A stretch of DNA of 64,000 nucleotides from contig CAZFSV010000001.1 in NCBI GenBank assembly GCA_964522195.1, forward strand, positions 44,680 to 108,679, in the 5' to 3' direction. Under the pieces are notes generated by a model that was given only the letters and a program-made list of their open reading frames with translations, was not told the origin of the DNA and searched no databases. Every line of letters starts with the position of its first letter. Position 1 is the first letter of the stretch. The stretch is from an uncultured Candidatus Saccharibacteria bacterium. Its GTDB lineage: Bacteria; Patescibacteriota; Minisyncoccia; Phycocordibacterales; UBA9973. A program made the position numbers and the translations under genes. Positions 13,852 to 45,374 of this stretch are shown here, in pieces.

Positions 13852-13859
13852 TCATCCAT

Positions 13860-14543
13860 ATGGCTAAAGACAAAACATCAAGACATGAATTGAAACGAAA
13901 CAGAGAACTAAAAGGAAATCTTGAATTAGCCAAGGGTAGTATATCCAGAGAGAGTAAATCTTTCTCTAGGTATGACCCTGATGAATTCATTACTAAAGGT
14001 AAACCAAACATACCCAAAGACATTCCAGAAAAAGAAAGAAAAAGATTAGAAAAACTTGCAGAAGAAACTGAGAAGAATAAAAAAGCTTTGGTATCACAAT
14101 TGCGAAAAACTCCCATAGCTCAGATAGCTTGTGAAAAGACTGGAATAGGCAGATCTACTTATTACAAATGGCGAGCAAATGACTTCATTTTTGCTCGTGT
14201 CGCTGATAAAGCGATGGATGCAGGTAGATTCTTCATCAATGATATGGCTGAATCAAAACTAATCAAACTCATTCAAGATAGTAATATGCAAGCCATTAGT
14301 TTATGGCTAAGACATAACCACCCTAGATACACATCTTTAGGTAGGATTATTAAAGACTTTGAAATTCTAACTGAAACTCTCTCAACAGAAGAGAAGAATG
14401 TTGCAGAACAAATGCTCTCAGAACTGGTGATGAATAAAGCAAAGTTAAACTATTCGAGCAAAGATTTGAAGGAGTATTACAACAAAGAAGAGAGTAAGAA
14501 TCCTGAAGATGAAAAAAGAATGCGGGGGTTTGATGAGGATTAA
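13860..14543 (+). CDS. HTH-domain protein (terminase-small-subunit/transposase-HTH-like), unknown function
   Basis: Basic N-terminus, putative HTH IACEKTGIGRSTYYKWRAND; 9 nt downstream of ParB-MTase. Confidence 0.4.
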   Translation: MAKDKTSRHELKRNRELKGNLELAKGSISRESKSFSRYDPDEFITKGKPNIPKDIPEKERKRLEKLAEETEKNKKALVSQLRKTPIAQIACEKTGIGRSTYYKWRANDFIFARVADKAMDAGRFFINDMAESKLIKLIQDSNMQAISLWLRHNHPRYTSLGRIIKDFEILTETLSTEEKNVAEQMLSELVMNKAKLNYSSKDLKEYYNKEESKNPEDEKRMRGFDED

Positions 14544-14552
14544 TGGTTAACA

Positions 14553-14580
14553 AAAATACCAGCTACGGCTGGTATTTTTT
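14553..14580. terminator. Bidirectional rho-independent terminator between convergent genes
   Basis: aaaaataccagc-tacg-gctggtatttttt perfect hairpin flanked by A-run/T-run. Confidence 0.75.
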
Positions 14581-14595
14581 ATGATGGTTTAGGTT

Positions 14596-17500: not shown

Positions 17501-17688
17501 GCAGAGAAATAATCGGTGATACCAAAGGCATATACATCAGATTCTTCCAACTTTCTACAATATTCATCCCACACGTCTTTACCAGAAGAAACAGCGTACT
17601 GGTCATTTAGTTTTGTGGTTGGTGGATGAATATGAAGATCCCACTTTCTCCATACTGAACCTATTCTAAACTCGTCTTTCTGAACCAT
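14596..17688 (-). CDS. PHP-domain phosphoesterase fused to SMC/RecN-like ABC ATPase with central coiled-coil (PplA-like defence protein)
   Basis: N-terminal PHP motifs (WDLHIHPP HxH, ...ACGSDAHS). Walker A AIIGNKGSGKS. ~450-aa coiled-coil/low-complexity spacer. ABC signature LSPGERGG, Walker B VIDQPEDNLD, H-loop IIMVTHNP. 2-nt spacer to upstream res gene. Confidence 0.7.
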   Translation of the reverse strand: MVQKDEFRIGSVWRKWDLHIHPPTTKLNDQYAVSSGKDVWDEYCRKLEESDVYAFGITDYFSADGYFTFIEKFKTKYPDSKKIFFPNIEFRLEDKNKENDHINIHIVFSDEATKEEIERFLSGIELRNVNVDGSKSKCVQTDLARIGYDKAIVTSDAILNSLKKTFGNRDVFLVFGVANGYGGIRPPQHEGRHTEYAKTIDDVCPVFFGRADDKDFFLGERYEGSVPKPVACGSDAHSFNDLENALGKRIIKTDAENLTVIERDITWVKADLTFEGLKYITYEPDERIFIGDEPGILDRVRTNQTKYIKTLHIDQIEGYDGKHGTWFKDEKIDLNPELVAIIGNKGSGKSAVTDIVGLFGNSHNQKYDGTNGRSEELFSFLNKDKFLKGRCASNFSGELHWHAGEPDGILLDAEVDKTLSEKVEYLPQKYLEKICANIEDDEFRGKLNEVIFGYVEEKDRFEKTTLEELITYLSSQIEEDIKLAKDSLHEANNKVVAAERKLAPDYKKSIEEKKRIKEEEVDTHNKLKPKDAPKPAQATEVATGGVSEITPIETELTTLATSITAIKTEQASVAKKVQDFGQIKLAISRQVMGITGLKTKYREQLTAADIKFDDIVTVSFDSKKIDDFVKTNEDRLAEINELLKTEADIETLGLNDADKKLALGKSLVCKQALLSKQRKEIVDRLDKPNQEYQAYLKDKEKWENQLKELVGDDTTPVADTLNWLTKELVAITSTYPAELTTAKEERTRVSKEIFAKKVTLATFYDSVKKSIDGEIEKYSEELGDYDISIEASLRFDKTFFDEFFRFVNQAVKGSFYGTEDGKSVLKRIVEEVTNWQNEKMVMSFLDSVTANIDTDKRVGLPANENKARGVFKQMKQGKEPVDLYDYIFGFDYLETKYDLKVDEKDLSELSPGERGGLLLIFYLMLDRRDIPLVIDQPEDNLDNKSVYEILVTFLKKAKKRRQIIMVTHNPNLAVVADAEQIIHVHIDKKNKNDFDFYSGSIENPKINKYVVDILEGTLPAFDNRKLKYRR

Positions 17689-17690
17689 GA

Positions 17691-19961
17691 TTATTTCAAT
17701 TCAAAAAATTCCCATCCTTTCATCGACGAGTCGAAAGAATATTTTGCGTTTTTGTTTATCTTCCATCCATTTGGCCCATCTTGGACAGCTATACCACCGG
17801 CAAAACCTTTTTTGCCCTTTAGCCATGCTTGAAGTGCCTCGGCTTTGTACTTTGTATCGTTGCTCTCCGCAGTAATTCCGCCTTTAGTATCAACAATGTA
17901 GAGAGTGTCTTTGGTCTGTACAATCCAGTCGGGATAGAAAAGTTTTTCCTTGTTTTCATCCTGATTGTAGTAAGAGATAGAGAAGTATTCGCTTCCCGAG
18001 TCGCCGTTTTTGTACCACCACACTACGCCCCTAGATGATTCGAGGAATTTTACAAACGCTTCCTCGTTAGTTCGTCCTGCATAATCTTTTTCTATCCAAA
18101 ACGGCTCCATAGCTGACTTCTTAACAGAAAGTGCTTCGTATTGATCAGTGAAGAACAAAGCTTCGCGTGGGATTTCAATATTCTCAACGCGCTTTGCGCG
18201 TGCAGATTTTTTGTTTACTTCTTGTTCACGAACAGGTCGATATTCAAGAAGTGCATCACCAATTACCGGAGCAAGTGCACCAGATGGACTCAAGAGATCG
18301 TTTACGATGATTTTATAGGCATCAATACGCTCCGCCTTAAGCTTATTCATTAGCCAAATATTTAAAGCTGTTTTCAGCTTTCCCCACGAACGCTCAGGAG
18401 CAAATTTTCTGTTCTCGTCTGTCTGTTTTGCAATAATTTTGAAGCAGAGGAGGTTATAGAGTCGCTCGAGATCGTGTCGAGACATTTCCTGCTCATGACT
18501 TCCTCCTTCTGCAAGAAGCTCCTTAGTAAAGTTGTCGTAATCATCAATTTCTACCCCAACGATCAAGCCGTTTGTGACTTTCGGCTTCAAATCCATTTTC
18601 TTTACATCTAGTTTTTTATCCGCAACTTTCTTGAATGTTTCTTGGAATGTATCGCCAAGGTCGTTATAGTCGGCACGAGTCATAAAGACCGATTCAAGCT
18701 TGATCGGCTTTATGTTTTTCTTGCGATAGCTTCCGTTTATTGCAGGGCGGTTTTCTGTCTTTGATTTTGCATACTCGGCAAGTACCTCGTTTCGCTTGTA
18801 GTTTGTATAGAGATAACCCAAATTAAGTTCAGGGTGTGCGAAATGCACGCCAAACGGCATTCGCAAGATGCGCCCTACAGTCTGAATTGCAAAAGTAGGA
18901 TTTTTGATTTCGCGGAACATCACAAGCACGCCCGCGCGCGGACAGTCCCAGCCAGTCGCGGCGGCTTGCTTGAAAAGCAAGAACGAAACCGGAGAATTAC
19001 TCTTTTCCAAGTCTTCAAGATTTTCCTTTTCTTTAGAAAGCCATACTGCAATTTCGTTTCCTTTTACACCCTTACGCTTTAGATATTCCAAAACAATTTG
19101 CTGTTTAGTTGTACCACCTGTTTCTTTTGTTGCTTGGTCGTCATTTGGTAGCTGTATCAGTACAAGCGGATTTACTTCTGCTTTTATTTCTTTATAGAGA
19201 GAAACGAGCTCCTCGCGCTTTGAATACGCAAGCTCTAAAAGCATTTCATCTTGATCAAGTTTCTTGATTGCTTTCTGACCCAAATCTTCCTCAGTTTGAA
19301 AAACAATTTTTTCCTTAATGAGTCCCGCTTCCACAACTTCAGCTCGCTTTACCTCGATATATCCGGCAACATCAGCACGGGTAGGGATGTATTTCGGCGT
19401 AGCCGACACGCGAATAGTGATTTTGGGTTTAACAACCCCATTTATAACTTCGTCCGCAAGTTCTGTATCAGAGCCAATATGCTCCTCGTCAATAATCACG
19501 ACAATTTTTCTTCCGTCCTCGTGGGTTTCGGCGATAAAATTATCAAAAGTTAGTCCTTGTTCATTATCTCGGCGAAGCTTTCGGCTATCTTTCGTCTTAC
19601 CTTTGATTTTTTGCCAGTTTATGAAAAAGACATTGTTCTTCTTTAGCTTTCCGCGCGAAAGATCGTTAAGATCAATCAAATCAAGCTCGGATGCTCCTCC
19701 ATAGTATTCAAAAAGTTTCTTTTTACTTTGTTCGTATGATTCTTCGCTAAACGAGAACCAAACAAATGCCACATCATTTCCCTCAAAACGAGGATCGCTC
19801 ACAATATCGCGTAAAAATTGCGCAAGCATGATTGTCTTACCCGAGCCAGTAGGCGATTTAAAGACGACGGGTGTATTTTCGTTCGGTAATTTCCACAGCG
19901 AAAGAAACTCATTTTTGAGATTCGATACTGCGGTTTCTTGAAATGGTTTTAGTGCAAACAT
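17691..19961 (-). CDS. res: Type III restriction enzyme Res subunit (SF2 helicase + PD-(D/E)xK endonuclease)
   Basis: Helicase motifs I FKSPTGSGKT and II VIIDEEH; C-terminal endonuclease motif YPDWIVQTKDTLYIVDTKGG (PD...DxK). Confidence 0.75.
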   Translation of the reverse strand: MFALKPFQETAVSNLKNEFLSLWKLPNENTPVVFKSPTGSGKTIMLAQFLRDIVSDPRFEGNDVAFVWFSFSEESYEQSKKKLFEYYGGASELDLIDLNDLSRGKLKKNNVFFINWQKIKGKTKDSRKLRRDNEQGLTFDNFIAETHEDGRKIVVIIDEEHIGSDTELADEVINGVVKPKITIRVSATPKYIPTRADVAGYIEVKRAEVVEAGLIKEKIVFQTEEDLGQKAIKKLDQDEMLLELAYSKREELVSLYKEIKAEVNPLVLIQLPNDDQATKETGGTTKQQIVLEYLKRKGVKGNEIAVWLSKEKENLEDLEKSNSPVSFLLFKQAAATGWDCPRAGVLVMFREIKNPTFAIQTVGRILRMPFGVHFAHPELNLGYLYTNYKRNEVLAEYAKSKTENRPAINGSYRKKNIKPIKLESVFMTRADYNDLGDTFQETFKKVADKKLDVKKMDLKPKVTNGLIVGVEIDDYDNFTKELLAEGGSHEQEMSRHDLERLYNLLCFKIIAKQTDENRKFAPERSWGKLKTALNIWLMNKLKAERIDAYKIIVNDLLSPSGALAPVIGDALLEYRPVREQEVNKKSARAKRVENIEIPREALFFTDQYEALSVKKSAMEPFWIEKDYAGRTNEEAFVKFLESSRGVVWWYKNGDSGSEYFSISYYNQDENKEKLFYPDWIVQTKDTLYIVDTKGGITAESNDTKYKAEALQAWLKGKKGFAGGIAVQDGPNGWKINKNAKYSFDSSMKGWEFFELK

Positions 19962-19965
19962 AGTT

Positions 19966-21651
19966 TTATAGGCGATTTATTTCTTTGTATACCTCAAGGA
20001 TCGGCTCGGGAATATCCTCGACTCGGATATGTGCGGATGAATATTCACCCTTGTATTCGTTCTTGCCCCAACTGAAAATATACAGAGCGACAGGTAAACT
20101 TTTCTTTTCAAGTTTTTCAATCAATTCTGCAAGCTTTGATTTGTCCTCCTTGAAATAGATTGCTGTCATTCGTCCGCGACCTTCAAAAATCTGCCACCAT
20201 TCATTTTTTTCAACTTCATTGAGAGTATCTTCACGGACAGCAATCATTTCTCCGGCTTGATAGGTAACACGAATTTTTGCTTCGTCAGGTATCTTCTGAA
20301 GATGTTCAATCTCAACAATATCTGTTTTGTAGTATGCAAGATTTCCTCCAAGCCCTTCAATTTTTTCACCAGTTTTTAAATTTTTATAGCCACTCATTAC
20401 TCGTTTTACGCGTTCGTAAGTCACTTCCTTGCAAATATTGTTTTCATTGTTAGTGCAAAGAATAAATCTACGATGACCACCGTCCTCTTTATTTATCTCG
20501 AGTACAGCATGACCAGTAGTACCAGATCCAGCAAAAAAGTCTACAACAAGAGCGTTGCGCCTATTTTTTGTTGTGGCAATTAAACACTCTTTTGTGTTGT
20601 AAAGTGATTTCGGAAATGGGAATTTTGTATCGATTATTTGATTTACCAAGCTTGAACCATAAGTATTAGAGTTATGTTTTGAATCCACCCATACTGTTTT
20701 GTATCTGTATTGACTCTTATATCTGTTGATTACAAGTTCACCTTTATTTTCTTCACACTTTAGTTCTCCCCAAATATCCTCAACTGTTTGTCTTGCAAAT
20801 CGCCACTTTCTTTCCACACCATTTCCATCAATGGGGTAAATTTCAACATTCCCATCTTTTCTTTTCTCGTTTGCGGATTTCGGATGTATCTCATCTTGAA
20901 GAACATCGCCAAATCCAATAATTTTCTTTGTTTTAGGATCAACAATAATTGAATAGAAACAATTTCGTGCTGTGTTCCTCTTAGATTCATCGCCACCCCA
21001 GTCTCTTAATGGGGTGGGTTTAACATCTTCTCTTTCTACGCGAGAAATATATTCCTTTCCTTTCGGAAAAATGAAATATGCATATTCGTGGGTATATGAG
21101 AAATTATCTCCTTGAATTCCACCTGGATTATGAATGATGGTTACGCAGACCTTTTCATGGGTAGGAAAAATATCCTCGAGCAAGAGACCTAGTGTCTCTT
21201 GCTCGTTGTGATCAATAGCACAAATTAAAATTCCATCTTGATTAAGAAGTTCCCTTGCGAGCTTCAATCTGTGACTCATAAAAGACAACCATTTGCTATG
21301 ACGATATTCGTCTTCCTTGTCTACATAGTCGTTGTTGTATCTCCAGTTTTTCGCTCCTGTGTTGTAGGGTGGATCAATGTAAATAACATCAACCTTCTTT
21401 TTATGAGTATAAACAAGAGCTGAAAGTGCATGATAGTTATCACCCTCAATCAGAAGATTATAGATTTCATTATCTGACTTCTTAACCTTAAGGTTTTTTA
21501 TTTGTCTCAATACAGGTATATTTTTTTGACCATCTACAACGACATCTTCTGGTTTTTCCTCCCAGATTAAGCCGTACTTGCGATCTTTTTTCAGACGTCT
21601 CAGTTCTGATTTCAAATCCGCTATCTCTTTTTGTAAATCTTTTTCAGACAT
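19966..21651 (-). CDS. mod: Type III R-M Mod subunit, N6-adenine DNA methyltransferase (beta class)
   Basis: Motif IV IYIDPPYNTG upstream of motif I VVDFFAGSGTTGHA; central variable TRD; 4 nt upstream of res. Confidence 0.8.
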   Translation of the reverse strand: MSEKDLQKEIADLKSELRRLKKDRKYGLIWEEKPEDVVVDGQKNIPVLRQIKNLKVKKSDNEIYNLLIEGDNYHALSALVYTHKKKVDVIYIDPPYNTGAKNWRYNNDYVDKEDEYRHSKWLSFMSHRLKLARELLNQDGILICAIDHNEQETLGLLLEDIFPTHEKVCVTIIHNPGGIQGDNFSYTHEYAYFIFPKGKEYISRVEREDVKPTPLRDWGGDESKRNTARNCFYSIIVDPKTKKIIGFGDVLQDEIHPKSANEKRKDGNVEIYPIDGNGVERKWRFARQTVEDIWGELKCEENKGELVINRYKSQYRYKTVWVDSKHNSNTYGSSLVNQIIDTKFPFPKSLYNTKECLIATTKNRRNALVVDFFAGSGTTGHAVLEINKEDGGHRRFILCTNNENNICKEVTYERVKRVMSGYKNLKTGEKIEGLGGNLAYYKTDIVEIEHLQKIPDEAKIRVTYQAGEMIAVREDTLNEVEKNEWWQIFEGRGRMTAIYFKEDKSKLAELIEKLEKKSLPVALYIFSWGKNEYKGEYSSAHIRVEDIPEPILEVYKEINRL

Positions 21652-21653
21652 AA

Positions 21654-21980
21654 TTATTTTCTTTTTACTATTTCTTCTCCTAAAGGACCTTCAATAAGTT
21701 TAACAGTTTCCTTTATAAACTGTTCCCATGTATACACTTCTTTGTACCACAATAAAACAACGTCGGTTCGATGCTTTAGAATTCTCAGAAATTTTTGCCA
21801 TGTAAATCCTACCGGTTTTAGTTCATCTTTCCACGCTTCCCATAAATATTTAGGGAGCTGATTTCCGTACCACACATTGAGATTTTCCCATTTAATAGAA
21901 GTATCTTTTGTGGTCATTTTTTCAATTGAACGAATCCAATCTTTTACATGCTGGGGTTCTTTTGGGGTAAAAAGTTTCAT
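21654..21980 (-). CDS. Hypothetical Trp-rich small protein, first gene of mod-res-PHP/ATPase operon
   Basis: 108-aa ORF ending 2 nt before mod start; no recognisable motif. Confidence 0.4.
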   Translation of the reverse strand: MKLFTPKEPQHVKDWIRSIEKMTTKDTSIKWENLNVWYGNQLPKYLWEAWKDELKPVGFTWQKFLRILKHRTDVVLLWYKEVYTWEQFIKETVKLIEGPLGEEIVKRK

Positions 21981-22088
21981 ATCCTAAGTATATGGTATAT
22001 TAAAAGAAAAGTAAAGTAATAAGATTACCAACATCTAGCAAATGAGACGCTCTGGACTCCTTGAGGGATATGCGTCATTCATTAGGGT

Positions 22089-23366
22089 ATGGAAACAGAA
22101 AAAGTAAAATATTGCTTATATGCAAGAAAATCAACTGAATCAGAAGAAAGACAGGTCCTTTCTATAGATTCACAGATTAAAGAGATGCTTCAATTAGCAG
22201 ATAGAGAGGGGTTAGAGATTGTAACGATGAAGCGTGAAAGCCACAGCGCCAAGGAAACAGGTCAAAGACCAGTCTTTAACGAAATAATAGAAGAATTAAG
22301 GGCTGGTAAGTTTAATGGAATACTCACATGGGCACCTGACCGTATTAGTAGAAATGCGGGAGATTTGGGAAAGATAGTGGACCTGATGGATGCAGGAAAA
22401 CTGAAAGAAATACGAACCTTTGGGCAAAAGTTTTCAAACAATCCGAATGAGAAGTTTCTTCTGATGATTTTAGGAAGTCAGGCAAAACTTGAGAATGATA
22501 ATAGGGGTATCAATGTAAAGCGAGGATTACGAACAAGGGTTGAGATGGGTCTCTGGCCAGGAGTGGCACCGCTCGGATATCTTAATCAAAGAGATTTAGA
22601 TAAAAAGTGTCAGCTAGTAGTAGACACACTTCGTGCTCCAATAGTGAAAAAGATATTTGAAAAAGTAGCTTATGAAAAAATGAGTGGTAGGAAAATATAT
22701 AACTGGCTCAGGTTTGAAGCGAATTTCTATACTCGAGGCAATAAACCCTTAACTCTCGCAGGAGTATATAGAATTCTAGAGAGTCCTTTTTATTATGGAA
22801 TGTTTGAATATCCGAAAGATAGCAGTAATTGGTATCAAGGTAAGCATAATCCATTAATTACAAAAGAATTATTTGAACAAGCTCAGGCACAACTGAAGAG
22901 AGATAATATACAAAGAGAGAATAAAGAATTCGCATTTACCAAACTATTTACTTGCGGATATTGTGAAAGTGGAATATCTGCAGAAGAGAAATGGAAACAA
23001 CTAAAAGATGGTACACATACAAAATACATATACTATTCGTGCAGTAGATCCCGAGATAGAAATTGTAAAAATAAATATATTCGTGAAGAGGAACTTATTA
23101 CTGAAATGTTGAATATATTAGATAAAGTAAATATAAATGAGCTTGGTATGAGGCAGAAGCTAGAAGACGAAATTACAAGATTTAATATATTCCAAAGGTC
23201 AGTACTTGGTGCGACAGATAAAATTAAAAACAACACAGAAGCAGATATACGAAACTATGCTAAGTATATTCTAAAAGAAGGGATGGTAAGTGAGAAAAGA
23301 GAATTGTTAGCCAACCTCAGAAGCAGGATTGTATATAAGGATAAGAAGCTAACACTAATAGAATAA
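22089..23366 (+). CDS. Large serine recombinase (resolvase/integrase family)
   Basis: N-terminal catalytic domain YARKSTESEERQ...SIDSQ, recombinase domain, Cys-rich zinc ribbon CGYCESG...YSCSRSRDRNC, C-terminal coiled coil. Confidence 0.85.
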   Translation: METEKVKYCLYARKSTESEERQVLSIDSQIKEMLQLADREGLEIVTMKRESHSAKETGQRPVFNEIIEELRAGKFNGILTWAPDRISRNAGDLGKIVDLMDAGKLKEIRTFGQKFSNNPNEKFLLMILGSQAKLENDNRGINVKRGLRTRVEMGLWPGVAPLGYLNQRDLDKKCQLVVDTLRAPIVKKIFEKVAYEKMSGRKIYNWLRFEANFYTRGNKPLTLAGVYRILESPFYYGMFEYPKDSSNWYQGKHNPLITKELFEQAQAQLKRDNIQRENKEFAFTKLFTCGYCESGISAEEKWKQLKDGTHTKYIYYSCSRSRDRNCKNKYIREEELITEMLNILDKVNINELGMRQKLEDEITRFNIFQRSVLGATDKIKNNTEADIRNYAKYILKEGMVSEKRELLANLRSRIVYKDKKLTLIE

Positions 23367-23373
23367 TTTATTT

Positions 23374-24762
23374 TTACTCATATTGAGAATGAATATTTTT
23401 AACATAGTCATCTGCAATTTGTAGAATTTCACTAAAAGTGAGTATTTCAATATTATGAAGTGAGTTACGAAGTTTCGTAAAGTCTCTCTTGAGACTTTTT
23501 TCTTTTACTTTATTTAATTTACTTTTAGTTAATTTGTGTTCAGAAGAAATAATAATTATTCCTCTTGGATGATAAAGGTTCTCTTCCTCGGTCATGTTAG
23601 TAATCTTATTTTCGTCAGAATTATTTTCAAATCGTTTCTGTACAATAGCATCCATGTAATTCATTGTTTGAATTACTGCTCTACTTAACTCAGAAGAAAA
23701 GCTAAAGTTTTTGTGAGAAGAATCCCAAGTAACAGCATTCTTAAGATGTGTTTTGATTTCGATAATATCAAGACCATTATAATGATTAATACCTATAAAA
23801 TCAGGATACTTTTTGTCACCATCAATATCTTTAAATTCAATTTTTGGATATATCTTTTTATATGAAAATACTAAATACAATAGATACTTTTCAAAGTATT
23901 TTTGCCAAAGATTTTCTAACTGTTTTATATCTGAAGTATCATCTGTGATTTTTGCGATAATTTTTTTAGCTTTCTCGGTGCTCATATCCGTAGAGCCAAG
24001 ATTAAGAATTTCTTTACCAACAGCAATAATGTCTTTGAGCTTTTCTTTTATAAAATACTCATCTAAAGATCTTAAAAAGTCTGGAGTAAATACCTCGTCG
24101 CGTATCAATTTTTCTGTAAAATACTCAAGATTCTTCACATCCTCTGTATCTAAAAAGTTATCGTAGTCTTTCTTTTTATTCTTATTTTTAAGATTGAAAC
24201 GCTCAATCATAAAAGAAAAATCTCCTTTGCCTATAGTTGTAGTTTCTTTTGGTGCTTTATTTGTGTACTTAAGTTTTAATTTATTTATTAAAAAAGTCTC
24301 GATGCGATCTCTACTAGATTTACCTTTTTTAAAAACATCATATGAATCACTTAAGATATCTATTAATACTGACTCTGGTATTTGTATTGTTTTTTCATTA
24401 GCTTTTCTTAAAATCTTTTTACCAGAGTTTAAGATTTTTATCTTAGAAAGAGTATCATCAATACCGAGAATATCTTTTATGTATTGAAACCATGGAATAT
24501 TATAGTCACTACCGTAACGGGTTCGTAGTACATTACTTATGTCTACCTTGTCTGAAATAAGTAATGACTGTTTATTATTTATTTTATCGTAACTATTTTG
24601 CTGTCGATTATAATAATGAAATTCTATGGTTGTGTCTTTTTTATTAAATATCACAACATCACCAGAAGGACAGGATATTTTAGAATCCTCAAAAACCATC
24701 CCTGGCCAGCTTAGGGATTGAAAAAACTCAACAATCTTTTCTTTTTGTGTTTTTTCTTCCAT
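23374..24762 (-). CDS. RecB-family PD-(D/E)xK nuclease-like protein (possibly Shedu/DUF4263-like)
   Basis: C-terminal KYPDFIGIN...GLDIIEIKT (PD, ExK) followed by QTMNY (QxxxY motif of RecB-family nucleases); 462 aa with long unrecognised N-terminal region. Confidence 0.4.
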   Translation of the reverse strand: MEEKTQKEKIVEFFQSLSWPGMVFEDSKISCPSGDVVIFNKKDTTIEFHYYNRQQNSYDKINNKQSLLISDKVDISNVLRTRYGSDYNIPWFQYIKDILGIDDTLSKIKILNSGKKILRKANEKTIQIPESVLIDILSDSYDVFKKGKSSRDRIETFLINKLKLKYTNKAPKETTTIGKGDFSFMIERFNLKNKNKKKDYDNFLDTEDVKNLEYFTEKLIRDEVFTPDFLRSLDEYFIKEKLKDIIAVGKEILNLGSTDMSTEKAKKIIAKITDDTSDIKQLENLWQKYFEKYLLYLVFSYKKIYPKIEFKDIDGDKKYPDFIGINHYNGLDIIEIKTHLKNAVTWDSSHKNFSFSSELSRAVIQTMNYMDAIVQKRFENNSDENKITNMTEEENLYHPRGIIIISSEHKLTKSKLNKVKEKSLKRDFTKLRNSLHNIEILTFSEILQIADDYVKNIHSQYE

Positions 24763-24776
24763 GCTTATATTTTACC

Positions 24777-24806
24777 AAAAAAAAGCAGATTAATCTGCTG
24801 TTTTTT
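24777..24806. terminator. Bidirectional rho-independent terminator
   Basis: aaaaaaaagcagat-taa-tctgctgtttttt perfect hairpin. Confidence 0.7.
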
Positions 24807-24865
24807 GGTACGTGAGTCACACCGCTTGCACGGGCAAGTGGGTTGACTCCGATACTAAATTGTGT

Positions 24866-24955
24866 TGGCGGAGAGAGCGAGATTCGAACTCGCGGTCCTG
24901 TTTAAGGGACGACGGTTTAGTAAACCGTTGATTTAAACCACTCATCCATCTCTCC
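24866..24955 (-). tRNA. Type II (long variable arm) tRNA, Ser-like, apparent anticodon ACU
   Basis: GGAGAGATGGATGAGTGGTTTAAATCAACGGTTTACTAAACCGTCGTCCCTTAAACAGGACCGCGAGTTCGAATCTCGCTCTCTCCGCCA. Acceptor 7 bp, T-arm GCGAG/TTCGAAT/CTCGC, G73, encoded CCA, 3-bp D-stem typical of tRNA-Ser. Anticodon loop TTACTAA reads A34-C35-U36. Confidence 0.65.
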
Positions 24956-25021: not shown

Positions 25022-25111
25022 GGAGCCGTGGGAGAGTGGTCTAATCTACCTCTTTGCTAAAGAGGCAGGCTGTAAAAGGCCTCGAGGGTTCGAATCCCTC
25101 CGGCTCCGCCA
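25022..25111 (+). tRNA. tRNA-Ser(GCU)
   Basis: GGAGCCGTGGGAGAGTGG...CCTCT-TTGCTAA-AGAGG anticodon arm (GCU), long variable arm, T-arm AGGGTTCGAATCCCT, G73, CCA encoded. Confidence 0.85.
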
Positions 25112-41271: not shown

Positions 41272-41281
41272 GATATTTTGG

Positions 41282-41482
41282 CGGTATGTTCTGGACAAAA
41301 TTCGAACTTTTTTCGAAGAAAATCCAAACGATTAAAACTAATAAAATGGACTCGGCAGGGCGAAACAATTTGTCTGGGGTTTTGGATTCGCCCTGCCTCG
41401 GCTGATTTCCCGCCCGCAGGAGGGGTCTGGGGAGGAATGCGGGCGGGTTTCGGACTGGGGGTTTTCGGAAATTCGGCGGCTA
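41282..41482. repeat. 201-bp GC-rich terminal inverted repeat, copy A1
   Basis: Identical (by eye) to reverse complement of 43090..43290. Contains perfect hairpins ggcagggcgaa...ttcgccctgcc (11 bp) and cccgcccgca...tgcgggcggg (10 bp). Outer end carries tRNA-3'-end-like AGTTCGAATTTTGTCCAGAACATACCGCC. Confidence 0.85.
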
Positions 41483-41489
41483 ACACTAA

Positions 41490-42113
41490 TCAAAAATTGA
41501 CATCTTTTACAAACCAATTTTTGAATCTTTTTAGAAAACTTTTTAAACTCTTAAAACTTCTTTTTATAAATAACCAAATATTTTCAAAAACAGTTTTTTT
41601 ATTTTTATATACCAGAAAGTTTAAAAAGTTTGCAGAATTGATTTCTTTAAGTTTATCTTTTATTTCGTCTTTTTCCCAAAAAGCAGTAAAAGATATTTTC
41701 TTTATAGATTCTGAGCCAAAGTAAAATTCCAGCGAACCACTATCTTCCAATTTATCTTTCGGTATTTCAAAATATAGAATTTCCAAAGTAGTTTCTGGTG
41801 GTAATTTAAAATATTCTTTTGTATATCCATATAGATATGAACCACCACCCAAATTAGAACTTTTGATATAGAAACTACTTTGTTCATCTAATCCTGGTGC
41901 AAAATTTGTTTTTGCTATTCCTACAAAAGCAGAAAACCATACCGTATTTATGAGTGTCTTTTGATTATTTTTTAATAAGACCGAAAAACAAATTTTGTCT
42001 TTATCTTCAGGATTTCTTATAACGAAAAAATACCTCAAATCACTTTTAGTTTCCTTTTCCTTTTCTTTGTTTACATTCAAATTATTATTAACAGTAAAAA
42101 GTGTGGGGTTCAT
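41490..42113 (-). CDS. Hypothetical protein (207 aa) in IR-bounded cassette
   Basis: ORF, last gene of XRE-led minus-strand operon; no motif. Confidence 0.4.
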   Translation of the reverse strand: MNPTLFTVNNNLNVNKEKEKETKSDLRYFFVIRNPEDKDKICFSVLLKNNQKTLINTVWFSAFVGIAKTNFAPGLDEQSSFYIKSSNLGGGSYLYGYTKEYFKLPPETTLEILYFEIPKDKLEDSGSLEFYFGSESIKKISFTAFWEKDEIKDKLKEINSANFLNFLVYKNKKTVFENIWLFIKRSFKSLKSFLKRFKNWFVKDVNF

Positions 42114-42118
42114 ATTTT

Positions 42119-42772
42119 TTAAATAGTTTCTTCCACCTCTTTGTTCAATTCGTTATAGTCCAGTTTAGAAAATTCGGTAAATAACGAATTGGCTAAAATA
42201 TGGATTATTTTTTCGTCTAGAAAGACATCGTTTGCGTATTTATTACTTGAACCATCGCCAGAAAGTATACTTGCAACTTTCATCATAAATCTATTTTTTA
42301 AGGTGTTTTCAAAAAATCTTATCTTAAACTCATCCGTTGCGTTAAAGGTTTGTCTTAATCTAATTTGGAATACATCAAGGATACTATTGCCTTTATACTC
42401 AGATAATTTTTGGTGTGCTTCGGGAGTAAAATTTTCATACATTTCACGAATCATTTTTTTATGTCCCTCAAAATCTTTTTCTTTATCTTTGTGGTCAAGT
42501 AATAAGGAAACTATAAGTATCATGTGTTCATTTAAAGCATCAGAAAATATTTTCTGATCTTCTTTGTCCATGTGTTGTTTAAATTTTTCTCCAACATAAT
42601 AATGTCCAAACATCGCAGCTTCCAAAAGTAAAGTTCCAAATGCAGAAGGGTGGACATTGACATTTTTAAGAACTTTTAATTCATTTCTCCAAGAAGAAAC
42701 GACTTTTTGTGAAATATCCCCAACAAGAGTTGCGACTGTCAAAGCAAGTTTTTCGATATTTTCTTTTTCCAT
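42119..42772 (-). CDS. Hypothetical protein (217 aa) in IR-bounded cassette
   Basis: ORF 12 nt downstream of XRE gene; no motif. Confidence 0.4.
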   Translation of the reverse strand: MEKENIEKLALTVATLVGDISQKVVSSWRNELKVLKNVNVHPSAFGTLLLEAAMFGHYYVGEKFKQHMDKEDQKIFSDALNEHMILIVSLLLDHKDKEKDFEGHKKMIREMYENFTPEAHQKLSEYKGNSILDVFQIRLRQTFNATDEFKIRFFENTLKNRFMMKVASILSGDGSSNKYANDVFLDEKIIHILANSLFTEFSKLDYNELNKEVEETI

Positions 42773-42784
42773 AATATTAGTTAA

Positions 42785-42991
42785 TTATTTTAATAAATCC
42801 TCCATAGGAACGCCTAACGACTTGGCGATTTTTTGGATTGTTTGAACACTTGGTTTTGTGACAACACCACCCTCAATTTTTGTAAGAGTAGAGTATTTGA
42901 TGTCCGCTTTCTTTGCCAAGTCGTCTTGCGTCAATCCTTGTTTTGTTCGTATTCGTTTTATGTTTTGTGATATAGTTGCCATAGTATCCAA
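42785..42991 (-). CDS. XRE-family helix-turn-helix transcriptional regulator
   Basis: 68 aa; HTH_3 signature QNIKRIRTKQGLTQDDLAKKADIKYSTLTKIEGG. Confidence 0.75.
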   Translation of the reverse strand: MDTMATISQNIKRIRTKQGLTQDDLAKKADIKYSTLTKIEGGVVTKPSVQTIQKIAKSLGVPMEDLLK

Positions 42992-43089
42992 ACTTTGATA
43001 GTATTATCTTATGAGTAGATTCTTTCTTTGCTCACAAAACAATGATAGCAAAAATTATGGATTTTATCAATCTGTATTTTCTAATTTTG

Positions 43090-43290
43090 TAGCCGCCGAA
43101 TTTCCGAAAACCCCCAGTCCGAAACCCGCCCGCATTCCTCCCCAGACCCCTCCTGCGGGCGGGAAATCAGCCGAGGCAGGGCGAATCCAAAACCCCAGAC
43201 AAATTGTTTCGCCCTGCCGAGTCCATTTTATTAGTTTTAATCGTTTGGATTTTCTTCGAAAAAAGTTCGAATTTTGTCCAGAACATACCG
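43090..43290. repeat. 201-bp GC-rich terminal inverted repeat, copy A2
   Basis: Reverse complement of 41282..41482. Confidence 0.85.
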
Positions 43291-43407
43291 CAACAAATCG
43301 GAATTCAAATTTCCGCAAAAAATATGGTCGGCACGAAGTGCCGTCTGTTCTGAATTCCCCCCAAAAAATCCTGAATCTGAAAGGGTTCGCCACGCAGAGC
43401 GTGGCTC
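43287..43407. repeat. 121-bp inverted repeat, copy B1, abutting A2 at shared CCGC
   Basis: Matches reverse complement of 44821..44940; begins CCGCAACAAATCGGAATTCAAATTTCCGCAA (degenerate tRNA T-arm/3' end). Confidence 0.85.
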
Positions 43408-43428
43408 CTCGTTAGCCAATACAACAAT

Positions 43429-44973
43429 ATGAATAATCAAACTAGAAAATTTTTTATATATACTCGCAAATCTACCGACACCGAAGATCGGCAAGTTAGA
43501 AGCATTTCGGATCAACTGGCCGAATTAAAAGAATTGGCGGTAAAAGAACAAATTGAGGTTATAGATATTTTTGTGGAAAAACAAACTGCTAAAGCTCCGG
43601 GTCGGCCAGTATTTAATGAAATGCTTCTCCGTATCGAAGCAAATGAGGCAAATGGAATTTTAGCGTGGCATCCCGATAGATTGGCTAGAAATAGTGTTGA
43701 TGGTGGTAAAATAATATATTTGCTCGATACAGGGAAAATTACCGAGCTAAAGTTTCCAACTTTCTGGTGTGATACAACTCCGCAAGGTAAGTTCATGCTT
43801 TCTATTGCATTTTCACAATCCAAGTATTATGTGGACAACCTAAGTGAGAATATTAAACGAGGTCATCGTAACAAAGTGAAAGAAGGAATATGGCCTCAAA
43901 TGTCGCCGATTGGATATGTAAATGTGAAAGGTGCTGGAATTGTACCCGACGAGAATATTGCCCCTTTAATCAAGAAAATATTTGAGGCCTATGCAACTGG
44001 AAATTTCACTTTGCGACAACTTCACGATAAGTTTAATGCTCTTGGATTGAGTAGAAAGAATAGAAAGGTGCTTTCCGTTTCCAACTACCAACAAATTTTG
44101 AGAAATCCGATATTCACTGGCTTAATGAGATATGGTGGTGAAATCTATGAAGGAAAGCACAAACCGATTATCACAAAGAAACTTTTTGATTCCGTTCAAG
44201 AAGTGATGAGCCGAAAATCTAAACCGCATAGCAAAGGACTAAAGTCATTTTTGTATAGAGGATTTTTCCGTTGCGGAGAATGCGGCTGTTTCATTACTAC
44301 CGAAACACAAAAAGGTCATAACTATTTACGATGTACTAAACGGAAAAATCCTTGTGAACAAAAATATGTCCGCGAGGAACTCATCACTTCTCAAATTAAG
44401 GAAGAAATCAAAAAAGTTTCTTTACCACTCGATTGGGCAAATTGGATGATTGTCGAAAACGAAAAAGACCGACAATCAGAAAATCAATCGAGTGAGATTT
44501 TTTCTCAAAAAACAAAAGATGAAATTTCTCTTTTGGATTCAAAAGTTGAAAAGTTGATGAACTTATATTTAGAAAATGTTTTGTCTTTAGAAGAATATCG
44601 AGATTCTAAAAATAAGTTAGTTAATCAAAAACAACTTTTAAAAGAGAAATTATCAGCTTTTGAGAAAAAATCTCATAATCGGTTCGAACTTACCGAAAAT
44701 TTTCTAAAAGCTAATATTCATATCGTGGAATTGGCTAACGAGAAAACAAATGAAGAAAATCTTCATTTGTTTAAAAAAGTCGGTTCGAACTTTTTAATTA
44801 AAGATCGAACCGTACTTTTTGAGCCACGCTCTGCGTGGCGAACCCTTTCAGATTCAGGATTTTTTGGGGGGAATTCAGAACAGACGGCACTTCGTGCCGA
44901 CCATATTTTTTGCGGAAATTTGAATTCCGATTTGTTGCGGAGGGTGGGAGATTCGAACTCCCGATGCCCGTGA
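43429..44973 (+). CDS. Large serine recombinase, paralog of 22089..23366 (C-terminal ~50 codons read through repeat B2/tRNA; true C-terminus uncertain)
   Basis: YTRKSTDTEDRQ...SISDQ catalytic domain, recombinase domain, zinc ribbon CGECGC...LRCTKRKNPC, coiled coil; ~45% identical by eye to first recombinase in N-terminal 100 aa. Confidence 0.8.
   Translation: MNNQTRKFFIYTRKSTDTEDRQVRSISDQLAELKELAVKEQIEVIDIFVEKQTAKAPGRPVFNEMLLRIEANEANGILAWHPDRLARNSVDGGKIIYLLDTGKITELKFPTFWCDTTPQGKFMLSIAFSQSKYYVDNLSENIKRGHRNKVKEGIWPQMSPIGYVNVKGAGIVPDENIAPLIKKIFEAYATGNFTLRQLHDKFNALGLSRKNRKVLSVSNYQQILRNPIFTGLMRYGGEIYEGKHKPIITKKLFDSVQEVMSRKSKPHSKGLKSFLYRGFFRCGECGCFITTETQKGHNYLRCTKRKNPCEQKYVREELITSQIKEEIKKVSLPLDWANWMIVENEKDRQSENQSSEIFSQKTKDEISLLDSKVEKLMNLYLENVLSLEEYRDSKNKLVNQKQLLKEKLSAFEKKSHNRFELTENFLKANIHIVELANEKTNEENLHLFKKVGSNFLIKDRTVLFEPRSAWRTLSDSGFFGGNSEQTALRADHIFCGNLNSDLLRRVGDSNSRCP
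44821..44940. repeat. 121-bp inverted repeat, copy B2, ending at tRNA-Ser(GGA) 3' end
   Basis: Reverse complement of 43287..43407; terminal ...TTGTTGCGG overlaps tRNA discriminator. Confidence 0.85.
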
Positions 44974-45024
44974 AGACATACAGACTTTCCAGGTCTGCGC
45001 ACTAGACCACTATGCGAACCCTCC
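44938..45024 (-). tRNA. tRNA-Ser(GGA), CCA not encoded
   Basis: GGAGGGTTCGCATAGTGGTCTAGTGCGCAGACCTGGAAAGTCTG...CGGGAGTTCGAATCTCCCACCCTCCG. Anticodon loop CTGGAAA (GGA), long variable arm, 3-bp D-stem, G73. Confidence 0.8.
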
Positions 45025-45270
45025 AAAATAATTTTTTAATTTGTTTTTTAAAACTTCTCTACCGTGACCAGTTTTGAAATATTTTTCTGCTTCTTGTGCA
45101 TCTTTTTTGTTTAAATAAGCTTCATAAAATATAAGATCAAAATCCCCATTTCTTGAAGTAAAATCAGAATTATGAGATTTGTGTTCTTTAATCCTTCTTT
45201 TTAAATCACTGGTAAATCCATAATACAGTTTACCATTTTTATGAAATTTTAATACATAAAAATAATACAT
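45010..45270 (-). CDS. GIY-YIG nuclease superfamily protein (UPF0213/YhbQ-like); start taken at MYYFYVLKF, not the TTG of the 45010..45330 ORF
   Basis: YYFYVLKF...NGKLYYGFTSDLKRRIKEH = GIY-YIG motif; last 4 codons plus stop lie inside tRNA-Ser(GGA) 5' end. Confidence 0.7.
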   Translation of the reverse strand: MYYFYVLKFHKNGKLYYGFTSDLKRRIKEHKSHNSDFTSRNGDFDLIFYEAYLNKKDAQEAEKYFKTGHGREVLKNKLKNYFGGFA

Positions 45271-45374
45271 ATTTGACCACTTCCGCCTCTTCGGCGGATG
45301 CGCCGTTGAGGCGCAATGCGAACCCTCCAATATATTAAATTTACACTATTTTAATAAAAAAGAAAGAAATGGTA

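What the first reader, a model, noticed from the sequence alone, without database searches (positions are those of the whole stretch)
43287..45024. Second large serine recombinase flanked by 121-bp inverted repeats that start with tRNA-3'-end-like sequence and end in the real tRNA-Ser(GGA) 3' terminus
Seen in sequence: B1 (43287-43407) and B2 (44821-44940) are inverted copies. B1 abuts the A2 repeat at a shared CCGC. B2 ends ...TTGTTGCGG exactly at the discriminator of tRNA-Ser(GGA). The repeat termini (CCGCAACAAATCGGAATTCAAATTTCCGCAA) look like decayed copies of the tRNA T-arm/3' end (ATCGGGAGTTCGAATCTCCC...CCGCAA). The same TTGCGG/CCGCAA core recurs at the outer ends of the A repeats. This looks like serial serine-recombinase-mediated insertions at one tRNA-Ser. 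The inverted rather than direct arrangement also allows recombinase-driven inversion. The recombinase reading frame runs through B2 and into the tRNA, so its true C-terminus and any overlap with its own att site are uncertain.
Basis: partly seen in the sequence, partly recalled or inferred. Interest (0 to 1): 0.7.

Follow-up and report, generated by a model that had tools for sequence, protein, structure and literature searches.

The report
Two-cassette serine-recombinase element in tRNA-Ser
The repeats are real and mark a 3.7-kb mobile element that a large serine recombinase inserted at the end of a tRNA-Ser gene; it belongs to a widespread, apparently undescribed family in ultra-small (CPR) bacteria, built from two repeat-bounded modules.

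Summary
Two 120-nt arms (43288-43407 and 44821-44940) are 100% complementary and flank a large serine recombinase (LSR) gene. They share a CCGC core with a second pair of arms (about 202 nt) that flanks a three-gene cargo.

The closest relative found (L093, LigA 93% identical) has ligA directly abutting the same tRNA-Ser(GGA). Deleting window 41285-44940 (3,656 bp) recreates that empty site.

The layout [A-cargo-A'][B-recombinase-B']|tRNA-Ser recurs in dozens of independent CPR/Patescibacteria assemblies. In those, any tRNA-Ser isoacceptor can be the target.

The A and B modules are one composite element, not serial insertions. B1 is always next to an A' arm, or next to the tRNA with A on the other side. 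The A end never touches a tRNA.

The internal A'|B junction is an inverted, intact copy of the site the excised circle would carry. Between genomes, either module occurs flipped, and in two cases the recombinase module sits between two tRNA(-like) genes.

The recombinase reading frame crosses the crossover core, so its tail depends on DNA context.

This is a new variant of a known kind. What the long repeats do remains inferred.

The parts
41285..44940 (.). The whole inserted element, 3,656 bp (equivalently 41281-44936, because the 4-nt core is present at both ends)
   Evidence: Removing this stretch reconstitutes the ligA|tRNA-Ser(GGA) junction of relative L093. Identity is 94.6% over 2.1 kb and the tRNA is 100% identical.
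41281..41284 (.). Core copy 1 (GCGG) at the distal junction X: chromosome flank | A arm (attL-like)
   Evidence: Identity with the other junctions starts exactly here.
41281..41482 (+). A1 arm, left inverted repeat of the cargo cassette. It holds the conserved end motif GCGG-TATGTTCTGGACAAAATTCGAA and two GC-rich hairpins
   Evidence: 202 nt, 100% complementary to 43090-43291. The end motif is conserved in all 76 A ends. The hairpins covary across loci.
41490..42113 (-). Cargo gene, 207 aa, function unknown
   Evidence: No match in Pfam, PADLOC or NCBIfam.
42119..42772 (-). Cargo gene, 217 aa, function unknown
   Evidence: No match in Pfam, PADLOC or NCBIfam.
42785..42991 (-). Small XRE-type HTH gene (65-68 aa), first gene of the cargo operon. 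It is a backbone gene of the family
   Evidence: HTH_3, E=8.6e-17. A small XRE-type HTH gene sits next to an A arm in 16 of the 18 elements listed; 12 of them match the window's protein by BLASTP.
43090..43291 (-). A2 arm, right inverted repeat of the cargo cassette
43288..43291 (.). Core copy 2 (CCGC, inverted) at the internal junction Y: A'|B1. Read on the other strand this is B-end + GCGG + A-end, the junction an excised circle would carry (attP-like)
   Evidence: Read directly. The same arrangement is seen in all family loci.
43288..43407 (+). B1 arm, left inverted repeat of the recombinase cassette
   Evidence: 120 nt, 100% complementary to B2. Arm length of 120/121 nt is conserved in the family. 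Two hairpins have compensatory changes and look terminator-like in both directions.
43429..44973 (+). Large serine recombinase ORF, 514 aa. Residues 1-464 are the conserved protein, 465-504 are encoded by B2, and 505-514 by the core and the antisense of the tRNA
   Evidence: Pfam Resolvase, Recombinase and Zn_ribbon_recom. Family tails are compared.
44821..44940 (-). B2 arm, right inverted repeat of the recombinase cassette
44937..44940 (.). Core copy 3 (GCGG) at the proximal junction Z: B2 | tRNA (attR-like)
44938..45024 (-). tRNA-Ser(GGA), the integration target. Its encoded CCA (present in the empty site) is replaced by CAA from the B arm
   Evidence: ARAGORN and Rfam. The empty site in L093 reads ...CCTCCGCCAAATATC.

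Best explanation
Window 41285-44940 is an integrated 3.66-kb mobile element of a large family found in CPR/Patescibacteria.

Integration. Its large serine recombinase inserted it by conservative site-specific recombination. The crossover lay in the 4-nt core CCGC, which is the last two acceptor-stem bases, the discriminator and the first C of CCA of tRNA-Ser(GGA).

Structure. The element is one unit made of two cassettes, each bounded by near-perfect inverted repeats:
- a cargo cassette, A arm - variable genes headed by a small HTH regulator - A' arm;
- a recombinase cassette, B arm - recombinase - B' arm.
Because of these repeats, the internal junction A'|B is an inverted, intact copy of the junction (B|A) that joins the ends in the excised circle, i.e. 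of attP. The predicted circle therefore has two 318-bp inverted repeats, each with an att core, separating two unique segments of 1,607 and 1,413 bp.

Polarity. Integration is polar: the B arm always ends up next to the tRNA and the A arm always distal. The core at the internal junction is inverted relative to the two outer cores. Recombination between it and an outer core, or homologous recombination between arms, therefore flips a cassette and does not delete it. Recombination between the internal junction and another tRNA-Ser gene rearranges the chromosome.

The reading frame. The recombinase frame is kept open across the B arm and the core. Its last residues are therefore set by whatever lies beyond: the tRNA antisense when integrated, or the A arm in the circle or after a flip.

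Shown: the repeats, the precise insertion, the family architecture, the polarity and the natural isomers.
Inferred: that the LSR (rather than RecA) drives the flips, the exact crossover dinucleotide (CC favoured because polarity needs a non-palindromic one), and what the long arms are for.
For: - Empty site: L093 (LigA 93% identical, same pilin-ligA synteny) reads ligA-TAA-GATATTTGGCGG-tRNA-Ser(GGA). Deleting 41285-44940 from the window reproduces it.
- Recombinase identity: LSR domains are present. More than 7,000 homologues exist, the top 120 at 78-94% identity, and every one named by a source is Patescibacteria. 206 relatives occur among the species-representative genomes.
- Architecture: arms of 120/121 nt flank the recombinase in about 40 loci. 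Arms of 190-418 nt flank a variable cargo directly upstream, sharing CCGC, in about 25 loci.
- Target: a tRNA abuts B2 in 55 of 65 loci with enough downstream sequence. 54 are tRNA-Ser, covering five anticodons. The near-identical element type of the window sits at tRNA-Ser(CGA) in L005.
- Polarity and composite nature: all 76 A ends adjoin either a B end or a non-tRNA flank. There were 0 metagenome hits for a tRNA|A junction.
- Isomers: the recombinase cassette is flipped in L012 and L015, where the order is tRNA|B-rec-B'|A. The cargo cassette is flipped in L037, whose HTH is 98% identical to the window's.
- Activity of the internal junction: in L026 and L087 the recombinase cassette lies between two tRNA(-like) genes. 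The same B type pairs with different A types, so modules reassort at the core.
- Open frame: the recombinase frame stays open through B in nearly all members, across about 10 B subtypes.
- Age of the design: a 37%-identical LSR in L029 and a second LSR type in L091 have the same cassette layout.
Against: - No read-level evidence of inversion or excision in any one population. All isomers are comparisons between genomes.
- Orientations are strongly skewed: about 90% have the recombinase pointing at the tRNA. Flipping is therefore rare or selected against.
- Near-100% identity of the arms within each element needs gene conversion, which site-specific crossover at the core does not provide. Homologous recombination must therefore act on the arms and could by itself explain the flips.
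- Canonical LSRs recombine only attP with attB unless a directionality factor is present. An attP-like site recombining with attL- or attR-like sites would be unusual.
- No circular form was detected. Short reads could not tell its junction from the internal one.
- The function of the two window cargo proteins is unknown.
Confidence: 0.7

Rival explanations
1. Serial independent insertions. A non-autonomous cargo cassette with 200-nt terminal inverted repeats inserted first at tRNA-Ser. An autonomous, IS-like recombinase cassette with 120-nt terminal inverted repeats then inserted between it and the tRNA. Each moves on its own as a circle with a palindromic junction, and the crossover dinucleotide is palindromic (CG or GC).
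For: - Each cassette looks like a transposon with terminal inverted repeats.
- CCGC contains two palindromic dinucleotides.
- A and B types reassort.
- Arrays of three or four cassettes exist: L029 and L091.
- Different LSR elements do accumulate next to tRNA-Ser: the flank motif of L053, L054 and L072 matches the end of the window's first LSR island.
Against: - The A end is never next to a tRNA: 0 of 76 in genome loci and 0 hits in 241 million metagenome records.
- No solo B cassette with an ordinary left flank was seen. B1's neighbour is always A', or the tRNA.
- The strict polarity argues for a non-palindromic crossover and for integration as one unit.
- L091's array sits on two adjacent tRNA(-like) targets and is not a re-insertion into a used site.
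Confidence: 0.1
2. The long inverted repeats are kept identical purely by homologous recombination and gene conversion. The internal junction is an inert relic of an old inverted duplication of the att region and the recombinase 3' end. The recombinase only integrates and excises through the outer sites, and the flips are RecA accidents.
For: - Arms are about 100% identical within elements but 75-99% identical between elements. This is a signature of gene conversion.
- The B arms are mosaic between elements.
- Flipped forms are rare.
- A conserved 13-nt extension of the repeat, with a 78-nt gap, looks like an old duplication of the gene's 3' end.
Against: - Arm length of 120/121 nt and the outer boundary at CCGC are conserved across LSRs as far apart as 37% identity. 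That is unlikely for a relic in streamlined genomes.
- In L026 and L087 a tRNA is joined to B1 exactly at the core. This needs site-specific, not homologous, exchange at the internal junction.
- Reassortment breakpoints lie at the core.
Confidence: 0.17
3. A Hin/Gin-like phase-variation switch. The recombinase flips its own segment and the cargo segment to turn genes on or off.
For: - The recombinase gene lies inside a segment bounded by inverted crossover sites, as hin does.
- Both orientations are seen among genomes.
Against: - The arms are identical, so the sequence context up to 120-200 nt on each side does not change on flipping.
- The arms carry terminator-like hairpins facing both ways, which would insulate the cassettes.
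- The cargo operon has its own promoter-like site inside the unique part.
- Cargo is unrelated from element to element.
- The enzyme is an LSR, not a small invertase with a C-terminal HTH.
Confidence: 0.03

Closest known systems
Serine integrases / large serine recombinases of phages and integrative elements (phiC31, Bxb1, A118, TP901-1; TnpX/TndX; CcrAB; XisF)
   Same: - Same domain set: Resolvase, Recombinase and zinc ribbon.
- Conservative insertion with only a few shared bases at the crossover and no target duplication.
- The recombinase gene sits next to the att site.
- Best NCBIfam hits are CcrB and XisF, both far below cut-off.
   Different: - The integrated element keeps an intact, inverted second copy of the attP-type junction.
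- Both modules are bounded by perfect inverted repeats of 120-400 bp. Known LSR att sites are about 40-50 bp with imperfect dyads.
- The ORF reads across the crossover core.
- No closely related solved structure: the only PDB sequence hit is an N-terminal catalytic domain, 3g13, E=4e-6.
tRNA-targeting genomic islands, including tycheposons of Prochlorococcus (bioRxiv 10.1101/2020.12.28.424599)
   Same: - Small cargo-carrying elements that integrate at the 3' end of tRNA genes.
- Variable cargo, partly defence or restriction-modification genes.
- Several elements can pile up at one tRNA.
   Different: - Most such islands use tyrosine integrases and restore the tRNA with a long direct repeat. 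Here the overlap is 4 nt.
- The enzyme is an LSR.
- The element has the double inverted-repeat cassette layout.
Yeast 2-micron plasmid with FLP/FRT (comparison from general knowledge)
   Same: The predicted excised circle has two unique segments separated by two inverted repeats, each carrying a recombination site. One segment encodes the recombinase. Flipping gives isomers.
   Different: - FLP is a tyrosine recombinase.
- 2-micron is a replicon that uses inversion for copy-number amplification.
- No replication gene was found here, and no circle has been observed.
Hin/Gin/Cin/Pin DNA invertases and multiple-inversion systems (Min, shufflons) (comparison from general knowledge)
   Same: - Serine-recombinase chemistry.
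- Segments bounded by inverted crossover sites.
- The recombinase gene lies inside its own invertible segment, as with hin.
- Adjacent segments share a site, as in Min.
   Different: - Small invertases have a C-terminal HTH, 26-34-bp sites, and an enhancer with Fis.
- Their inversion changes gene expression or the C-termini of target proteins.
- None of this is seen here.
Tn3-family res site between divergent tnpA and tnpR (comparison from general knowledge)
   Same: A recombination site of about 120 bp lies between two divergently transcribed units (HTH-cargo operon and recombinase). It could double as an operator.
   Different: - Resolvase acts on directly repeated res sites to resolve cointegrates.
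- Here the copies are inverted and the enzyme is an LSR.
- The operator role is untested.

Membership tests
Large serine recombinase (serine integrase) family | N-terminal resolvase-type catalytic domain with the serine nucleophile motif | tested here: met
   PF00239, E=7e-21, residues 9-154. The motif Y11-T-R-K-S15-T is read. Assigning S15 as the nucleophile is an inference from the motif.
Large serine recombinase (serine integrase) family | C-terminal Recombinase domain plus zinc-ribbon domain | tested here: met
   PF07508, E=1.5e-14, and PF13408, E=1.5e-8.
Large serine recombinase (serine integrase) family | Conservative insertion at a short common core without target duplication | tested here: met
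   The window and the empty site L093 differ by exactly 3,656 bp, with only GCGG shared at both ends. Resolution is 4 nt. The 2-bp crossover itself could not be located.
Large serine recombinase (serine integrase) family | Strict attP x attB directionality, with excision needing a directionality factor | not testable with these tools
   A small HTH gene is conserved in the element, but its role is unknown.
tRNA-gene integrative genomic island | Inserted at the 3' end of a tRNA gene, with an empty site in relatives | tested here: met
tRNA-gene integrative genomic island | The element restores the tRNA 3' part, leaving a displaced tRNA fragment as a long direct repeat at the far end | tested here: not met
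   Only 4 nt (up to about 6) are repeated. In the window, the encoded CCA becomes CAA.
Hin/Gin-type DNA invertase switch | Small serine recombinase (about 190 aa) with a C-terminal HTH | tested here: not met
   514-aa LSR domain architecture.
Hin/Gin-type DNA invertase switch | Segment bounded by inverted crossover sites and found in both orientations | tested here: inconclusive
   Both orientations occur between genomes (L012, L015, L037). No within-population data.
IS607-type serine transposase insertion sequence | N-terminal HTH followed by the catalytic domain; no terminal inverted repeats | tested here: not met
   The NCBIfam IS607 model scores 24 bits against a cut-off of 110. The domain order is that of an LSR.
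2-micron-like inverted-repeat circle | An autonomous circular replicon carrying two inverted recombination-site repeats | tested here: inconclusive
   The repeat geometry fits the predicted circle (derived). No replication gene was found in the cargo of 18 elements, and no circular contig was found.

The most novel reading that the evidence does not exclude
The inverted-repeat design makes the att sites self-regenerating. Every junction would have one variable T-rich half (B end or tRNA trailer) and one strong TTCGAA-bearing half (A end or tRNA T-arm). Each exchange would then recreate competent sites instead of locked attL and attR.

One LSR, without a separate directionality factor, could in that case integrate, excise, flip and reshuffle cargo and recombinase cassettes. 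The DNA state could be reported back through the alternative C-terminal tails of the recombinase.

This would be an LSR-based cassette-shuffling system, a functional analogue of integrons or shufflons, spreading defence and other genes among CPR bacteria.
Probability: 0.15. Interest if true: 0.85.

Novelty: new variant of a known kind. Interest (0 to 1): 0.68.

Why it matters
CPR/Patescibacteria make up a large share of bacterial diversity, and almost nothing is known about how genes move between them.

This element family has recombinases 78-97% identical across lineages that the records label as different candidate phyla. It targets every tRNA-Ser isoacceptor. It carries interchangeable cargo, including restriction-modification systems, SIR2/HerA-like and Abi-like genes, and transporters.

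That makes it a concrete, testable vehicle for gene flow in these organisms.

For recombinase biology, it offers a natural LSR system with an intact inverted attP-type site inside the integrated element. It also has an ORF that spans its own crossover point. Either feature may bear on how directionality is controlled, a property that matters for the use of serine integrases as genome-engineering tools.

On a practical level, the long inverted repeats break short-read assemblies. 42 of 80 contigs start within 600 nt upstream of the gene or inside it. These elements are therefore probably under-reported.

Tried and rejected
- Exact-protein look-up of the recombinase and of the GIY-YIG protein: not on record.
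- Look-up of the window's own LigA: gave only a contig of the same strain that ends inside A1, so it was uninformative about the empty site.
- Exact scan of JGI metagenomes for my predicted empty attB: 0 hits. The real empty site, later found through LigA homologues, has one T fewer and comes from a Logan assembly.
- Rfam on the region and on the whole window: nothing in the arms.
- PADLOC, NCBIfam and Pfam on the two window cargo proteins: nothing.
- IMG/VR viral contigs: only a 26%-identical relative, so there is no sign the element is phage-borne.
- PDB by sequence: only an N-terminal domain hit.
- L091 as a tandem integration into a used B|tRNA junction: I first read it this way. The sequence shows a 165-nt tRNA-like gene between the two elements, so the claim was withdrawn.
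- The window's ligA flank as a product of inversion of the block [tRNA + element]: L093 shows that the tRNA was already inverted before this insertion.
- ORFs running through the A arms (41278-41724 and 43067-43393): no family hits, and the amino-acid composition is unlike a protein.
- Assembly artefact: rejected because of the many independent assemblies.
- Literature: five full-text searches and two papers read found no description of this architecture.
Full report
OBSERVATION. The repeat pair is real. Arms 43288-43407 and 44821-44940 are 120 nt and 100% complementary, with 1,413 nt between them. A second pair, 41276-41482 and 43090-43296, is 207 nt at 99%; its exact part is 202 nt, 41281-41482 and 43090-43291. 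This pair flanks three minus-strand genes. The two pairs meet at 43288-43296.

Reading the three junctions side by side gives:
- X: ...ACTAAGATATTTTG GCGG TATGTTCTGGAC...
- Y, on the reverse strand: ...GAATTCCGATTTGTT GCGG TATGTTCTGGAC...
- Z: ...GAATTCCGATTTGTT GCGG AGGGTGGGAGATTCGAAC...

Only GCGG/CCGC is common to all three. tRNA-Ser(GGA) lies at 44937/8-45024 on the minus strand. CCGC therefore corresponds to its last two acceptor-stem bases, the discriminator G and one more C. The ORF 43429-44973 has Resolvase, Recombinase and Zn_ribbon_recom domains. It reads through B2 and 33 nt into the antisense of the tRNA.

THE JUNCTION LOGIC. X has the form flank|A. Z has the form B|tRNA. Y, read on the other strand, has the form B|A. 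X and Z thus look like attL and attR. Y is an intact, inverted copy of the junction that joining the two element ends would make (attP). Joining the outer flanks predicts an empty site, ligA-stop...TTTTGGCGG-AGGGTGGG..., in which the tRNA would end CCTCC-G-CCA.

EMPTY SITE. LigA homologues were collected and their contigs fetched.
- L093 has a LigA 93% identical and the same upstream pilin gene order. It reads ...ATGATAGACTAAGATATTTGGCGGAGGGTGGGAGATTCGAACTCCC..., so ligA directly abuts the same tRNA-Ser(GGA) on the minus strand.
- Deleting window 41285-44940 (3,656 bp) reproduces L093. Identity is 94.6% over 2.1 kb, the tRNA is 100% identical, and the only local difference is one T in a T-run.

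The insertion is therefore precise, with only the 4-nt core present at both ends. That is the outcome expected of conservative recombination by a serine recombinase. In the window, the encoded CCA of the empty site is replaced by CAA from the B arm.

A FAMILY, NOT A ONE-OFF.
- The recombinase has more than 7,000 homologues at E<=1e-10. The best 120 are 78-94% identical, and every one named by a source is Patescibacteria.
- Among one-genome-per-species contigs, 206 stretches encode a relative. 80 of these were fetched.
- In about 40 of the 50 loci with sequence on both sides, the gene is flanked by inverted arms of 120/121 nt, mostly 96-100% identical.
- In about 25 loci with enough upstream sequence, a second pair of arms (190-418 nt, about 100% identical) flanks a variable segment of 1.4-6.3 kb directly upstream. 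It meets the B arm at CCGC.
- A tRNA abuts B2, 3' end first, in 55 of 65 loci with at least 230 nt downstream. 54 are tRNA-Ser: GGA 20, TGA 14, GCT 11, CGA 6, ACT 3. One is tRNA-Asp.
- The element type of the window (same A and B ends, recombinase 95% identical) sits at tRNA-Ser(CGA) in L005.
- LSRs only 37-62% identical (L029 second gene, L077, L091 second gene) have the same cassette layout. The design is therefore older than this recombinase clade.
- Many contigs end inside the longer A arms. This is expected for repeats longer than the assembler's k-mer and is not in itself evidence of heterogeneity.

ONE COMPOSITE ELEMENT WITH FIXED POLARITY.
- The A end is strongly conserved, with the form GCGG-N(8-12)-[GTA]A[CA][AG]A..TTCG[AG]A.
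- All 76 A ends found in the window and the 80 loci adjoin either a B end (Y type) or a non-tRNA flank (X type). None adjoins a tRNA.
- A pattern scan of 241 million metagenome records for a tRNA T-loop joined to an A end at the canonical distance found nothing.
- Conversely, B1's outer neighbour is always an A' arm or, in six loci, the tRNA.
- No B cassette or A cassette was seen alone at a tRNA.

So the A and B modules integrate together as B|A x flank|tRNA, always with B next to the tRNA. Such polarity needs a non-palindromic crossover dinucleotide. Within CCGC only CC qualifies. This last point is an inference.

The bases left of X are TG (giving CCGCCA) in 9 of 20 loci, against about 1 expected by chance. 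This fits the X flank being a former tRNA trailer with an encoded CCA.

NATURAL ISOMERS AND ACTIVITY OF THE INTERNAL JUNCTION.
- In L012 and L015 the order is tRNA-Ser(+)|B-rec-B'|A. The recombinase cassette is flipped, and the ORF then ends in the A arm (...RYVLDK(I/V)RTFFE...). This is exactly what translating the window's Y junction predicts.
- In L037 the cargo operon, whose HTH is 98% identical to the window's, runs towards the recombinase instead of away from it. The cargo cassette is flipped.
- In L026 the recombinase cassette lies between tRNA-Ser(GGA) and tRNA-Ser(GCT), which face each other. In L087 it lies between tRNA-Ser(CGA) and a tRNA-like gene. Both are joined exactly at the core. 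This is what recombination between Y and a second tRNA-Ser site would give.
- The same B type occurs with different A types: L020 versus L021, and L066 versus L039. Modules therefore reassort at the core.

All of this is evidence between genomes. No within-population data are available here.

WHAT THE ARMS CONTAIN.
- B arms: the outer 30 nt vary between subtypes and the inner 90 nt are well conserved. Two hairpins are kept by compensatory changes: 6 of 14 pairs have changes on both sides, and 0 of 500 shuffles reach that value. The first hairpin scores as terminator-like in both directions.
- A arms: two GC-rich hairpins with covarying stems and conserved CCCCAGA-containing loops.
- Arms are about 100% identical within an element but only 75-99% identical between elements. 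Gene conversion must therefore act on them.
- The conserved recombinase sequence ends at ...KVGSNFxIKDRTVLF (residue 464), exactly where B2 begins. The next 40 codons, encoded by B, stay open in nearly all members across about ten B subtypes. The stop lies beyond the core.
- The T-arm likeness of the B terminus is significant in the window (p=0.002) and in a few others, but not family-wide.

CARGO. Sixteen of the eighteen complete cargo cassettes listed carry a 65-73-aa XRE-type HTH gene next to an A arm; 12 of these proteins match the window's by BLASTP. In most it sits at the arm facing the recombinase and is transcribed away from it, followed by one to five unrelated genes.

The cargo includes HpaII and EcoRI restriction-modification systems, a type IIG/I-like system, SIR2 and HerA-like genes, AAA_15/AbiEii-like genes, RadC, transporters, D-Ala-D-Ala ligase and others. 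No replication gene was seen. The window's two cargo proteins match nothing. A promoter-like site lies just upstream of the window's HTH gene, in the unique part, although such sites are not enriched overall.

MECHANISM.
- Shown: a precise LSR-type insertion at tRNA-Ser; the composite two-cassette structure; an inverted attP-type junction retained inside; fixed polarity; flipped and rearranged natural variants.
- Inferred: the LSR performs B|A x attB integration. The excised form would be a 3,656-bp circle with two 318-bp inverted repeats. The inner core is inverted relative to the outer ones, so exchanges flip cassettes rather than delete them. The inner junction can attack other tRNA-Ser genes. 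The recombinase tail reports DNA context.
- Not resolved: whether flips are catalysed by the LSR or by homologous recombination; what the long arms are for (insulation by terminators, regulation, accessory binding sites); and whether the HTH protein controls direction.

COMPARISON AND NOVELTY. By domain content and insertion chemistry the enzyme is a member of the large serine recombinases. The element works like a tRNA-targeting genomic island or a tycheposon. The retained inverted attP copy and the perfect cassette-bounding repeats have their nearest analogues elsewhere: the 2-micron/FLP geometry and the Hin or Min inversion systems. The element fails the membership tests of those families.

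Five full-text literature searches and two papers read found no description of this architecture. I rate it a new variant of a known kind.

LIMITS. There is no read-level, transcript or biochemical evidence. The 80 comparison loci were chosen by the presence of the recombinase.

Noticed in passing
window 44938-45024 versus L094 10139-10226, L095, L003, L052, L071, L009, L045: In seven relatives the order is pilins -> ligA -> tRNA-Ser(GGA), all on one strand. L094 and L095 are empty; the others are occupied. In the window and in L093, the tRNA gene alone is inverted and converges on ligA. The inverted unit runs from G1-G2 to the CC of CCA. In the window it is flanked by TATTTTGG (41274-41281) and CCAAAATA (45023-45030). 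This may be a footprint of an earlier element-mediated inversion followed by excision.
   Followed up: partly
window 45010-45330: A small GIY-YIG ORF sits between the 5' end of tRNA-Ser(GGA) and an exact 14-nt duplicate of that 5' end (TGCGAACCCTCCAA at 45013-45026 and 45317-45330). The upstream copy is followed by two GC hairpins (z=-3.1). A GIY-YIG gene also lies 5' of tRNA-Ser in L002 and L011. It looks like a second, unrelated small mobile insertion at the other end of the same tRNA.
   Followed up: partly
window 12500-24865: The 'first' large serine recombinase is 22089-23366 (425 aa, 36% identical to the one studied, no inverted arms). It lies in a GC-richer block with DNA methylases, a Shedu SduA_C protein (23374-24762) and large ORFs, and the block abuts tRNA-Ser(ACT). 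The tRNA-proximal end motif of this block, GTGGGTTGACTCCGATACTAA, recurs immediately left of the composite element in L053, L054 and L072. Different LSR elements therefore stack at tRNA-Ser genes.
   Followed up: partly
window 24866-24955 (minus strand) and 25022-25111 (plus strand): A tRNA-Ser with anticodon ACT lies beside tRNA-Ser(GCT). The same pair occurs in L018, L019, L055, L058, L060 and L062. An A34 serine tRNA is unusual.
   Followed up: no
window 43408-43420 and 44730-44742: The 13 nt just inside B1 (CTCGTTAGCCAAT, in the recombinase 5' leader) are perfectly complementary to ATTGGCTAACGAG, which lies 78 nt upstream of B2 and encodes ELANE. A 12- or 13-nt perfect match at this position was found in 11 of the 15 family members tested. 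It may be an old extension of the repeat, or a 5'-3' pairing in the mRNA.
   Followed up: partly
L091 4160-4325: A 165-nt tRNA-like sequence has a 7-bp acceptor-type pairing and two T-arm-like motifs, but ARAGORN does not call it. It serves as the target of one composite element and lies next to tRNA-Ser(CGA), which carries a second composite with a different LSR. The same sequence flanks the identical recombinase in L087.
   Followed up: partly
L003 7666-7866 versus the other A arms (alignment A3, columns 55-73): The loop of the first A-arm hairpin is present as its reverse complement in L003. This is a small hairpin-mediated inversion. Both A-arm hairpin loops contain CCCCAGA.
   Followed up: no
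window 11998-12120 (minus strand): A LOOT RNA (Rfam RF03000, 76.6 bits) lies at the left edge of the GC-richer island.
   Followed up: no
loci L007, L008, L017, L022, L024, L027, L029, L046, L047, L049, L078: Contigs carrying this CPR-type element are filed in MAGs labelled Bacteroidota, Lentisphaerae, Bdellovibrionales or Gammaproteobacteria. These are probably mis-binned or mislabelled. One is a 950-kb contig, the size of a CPR genome.
   Followed up: no
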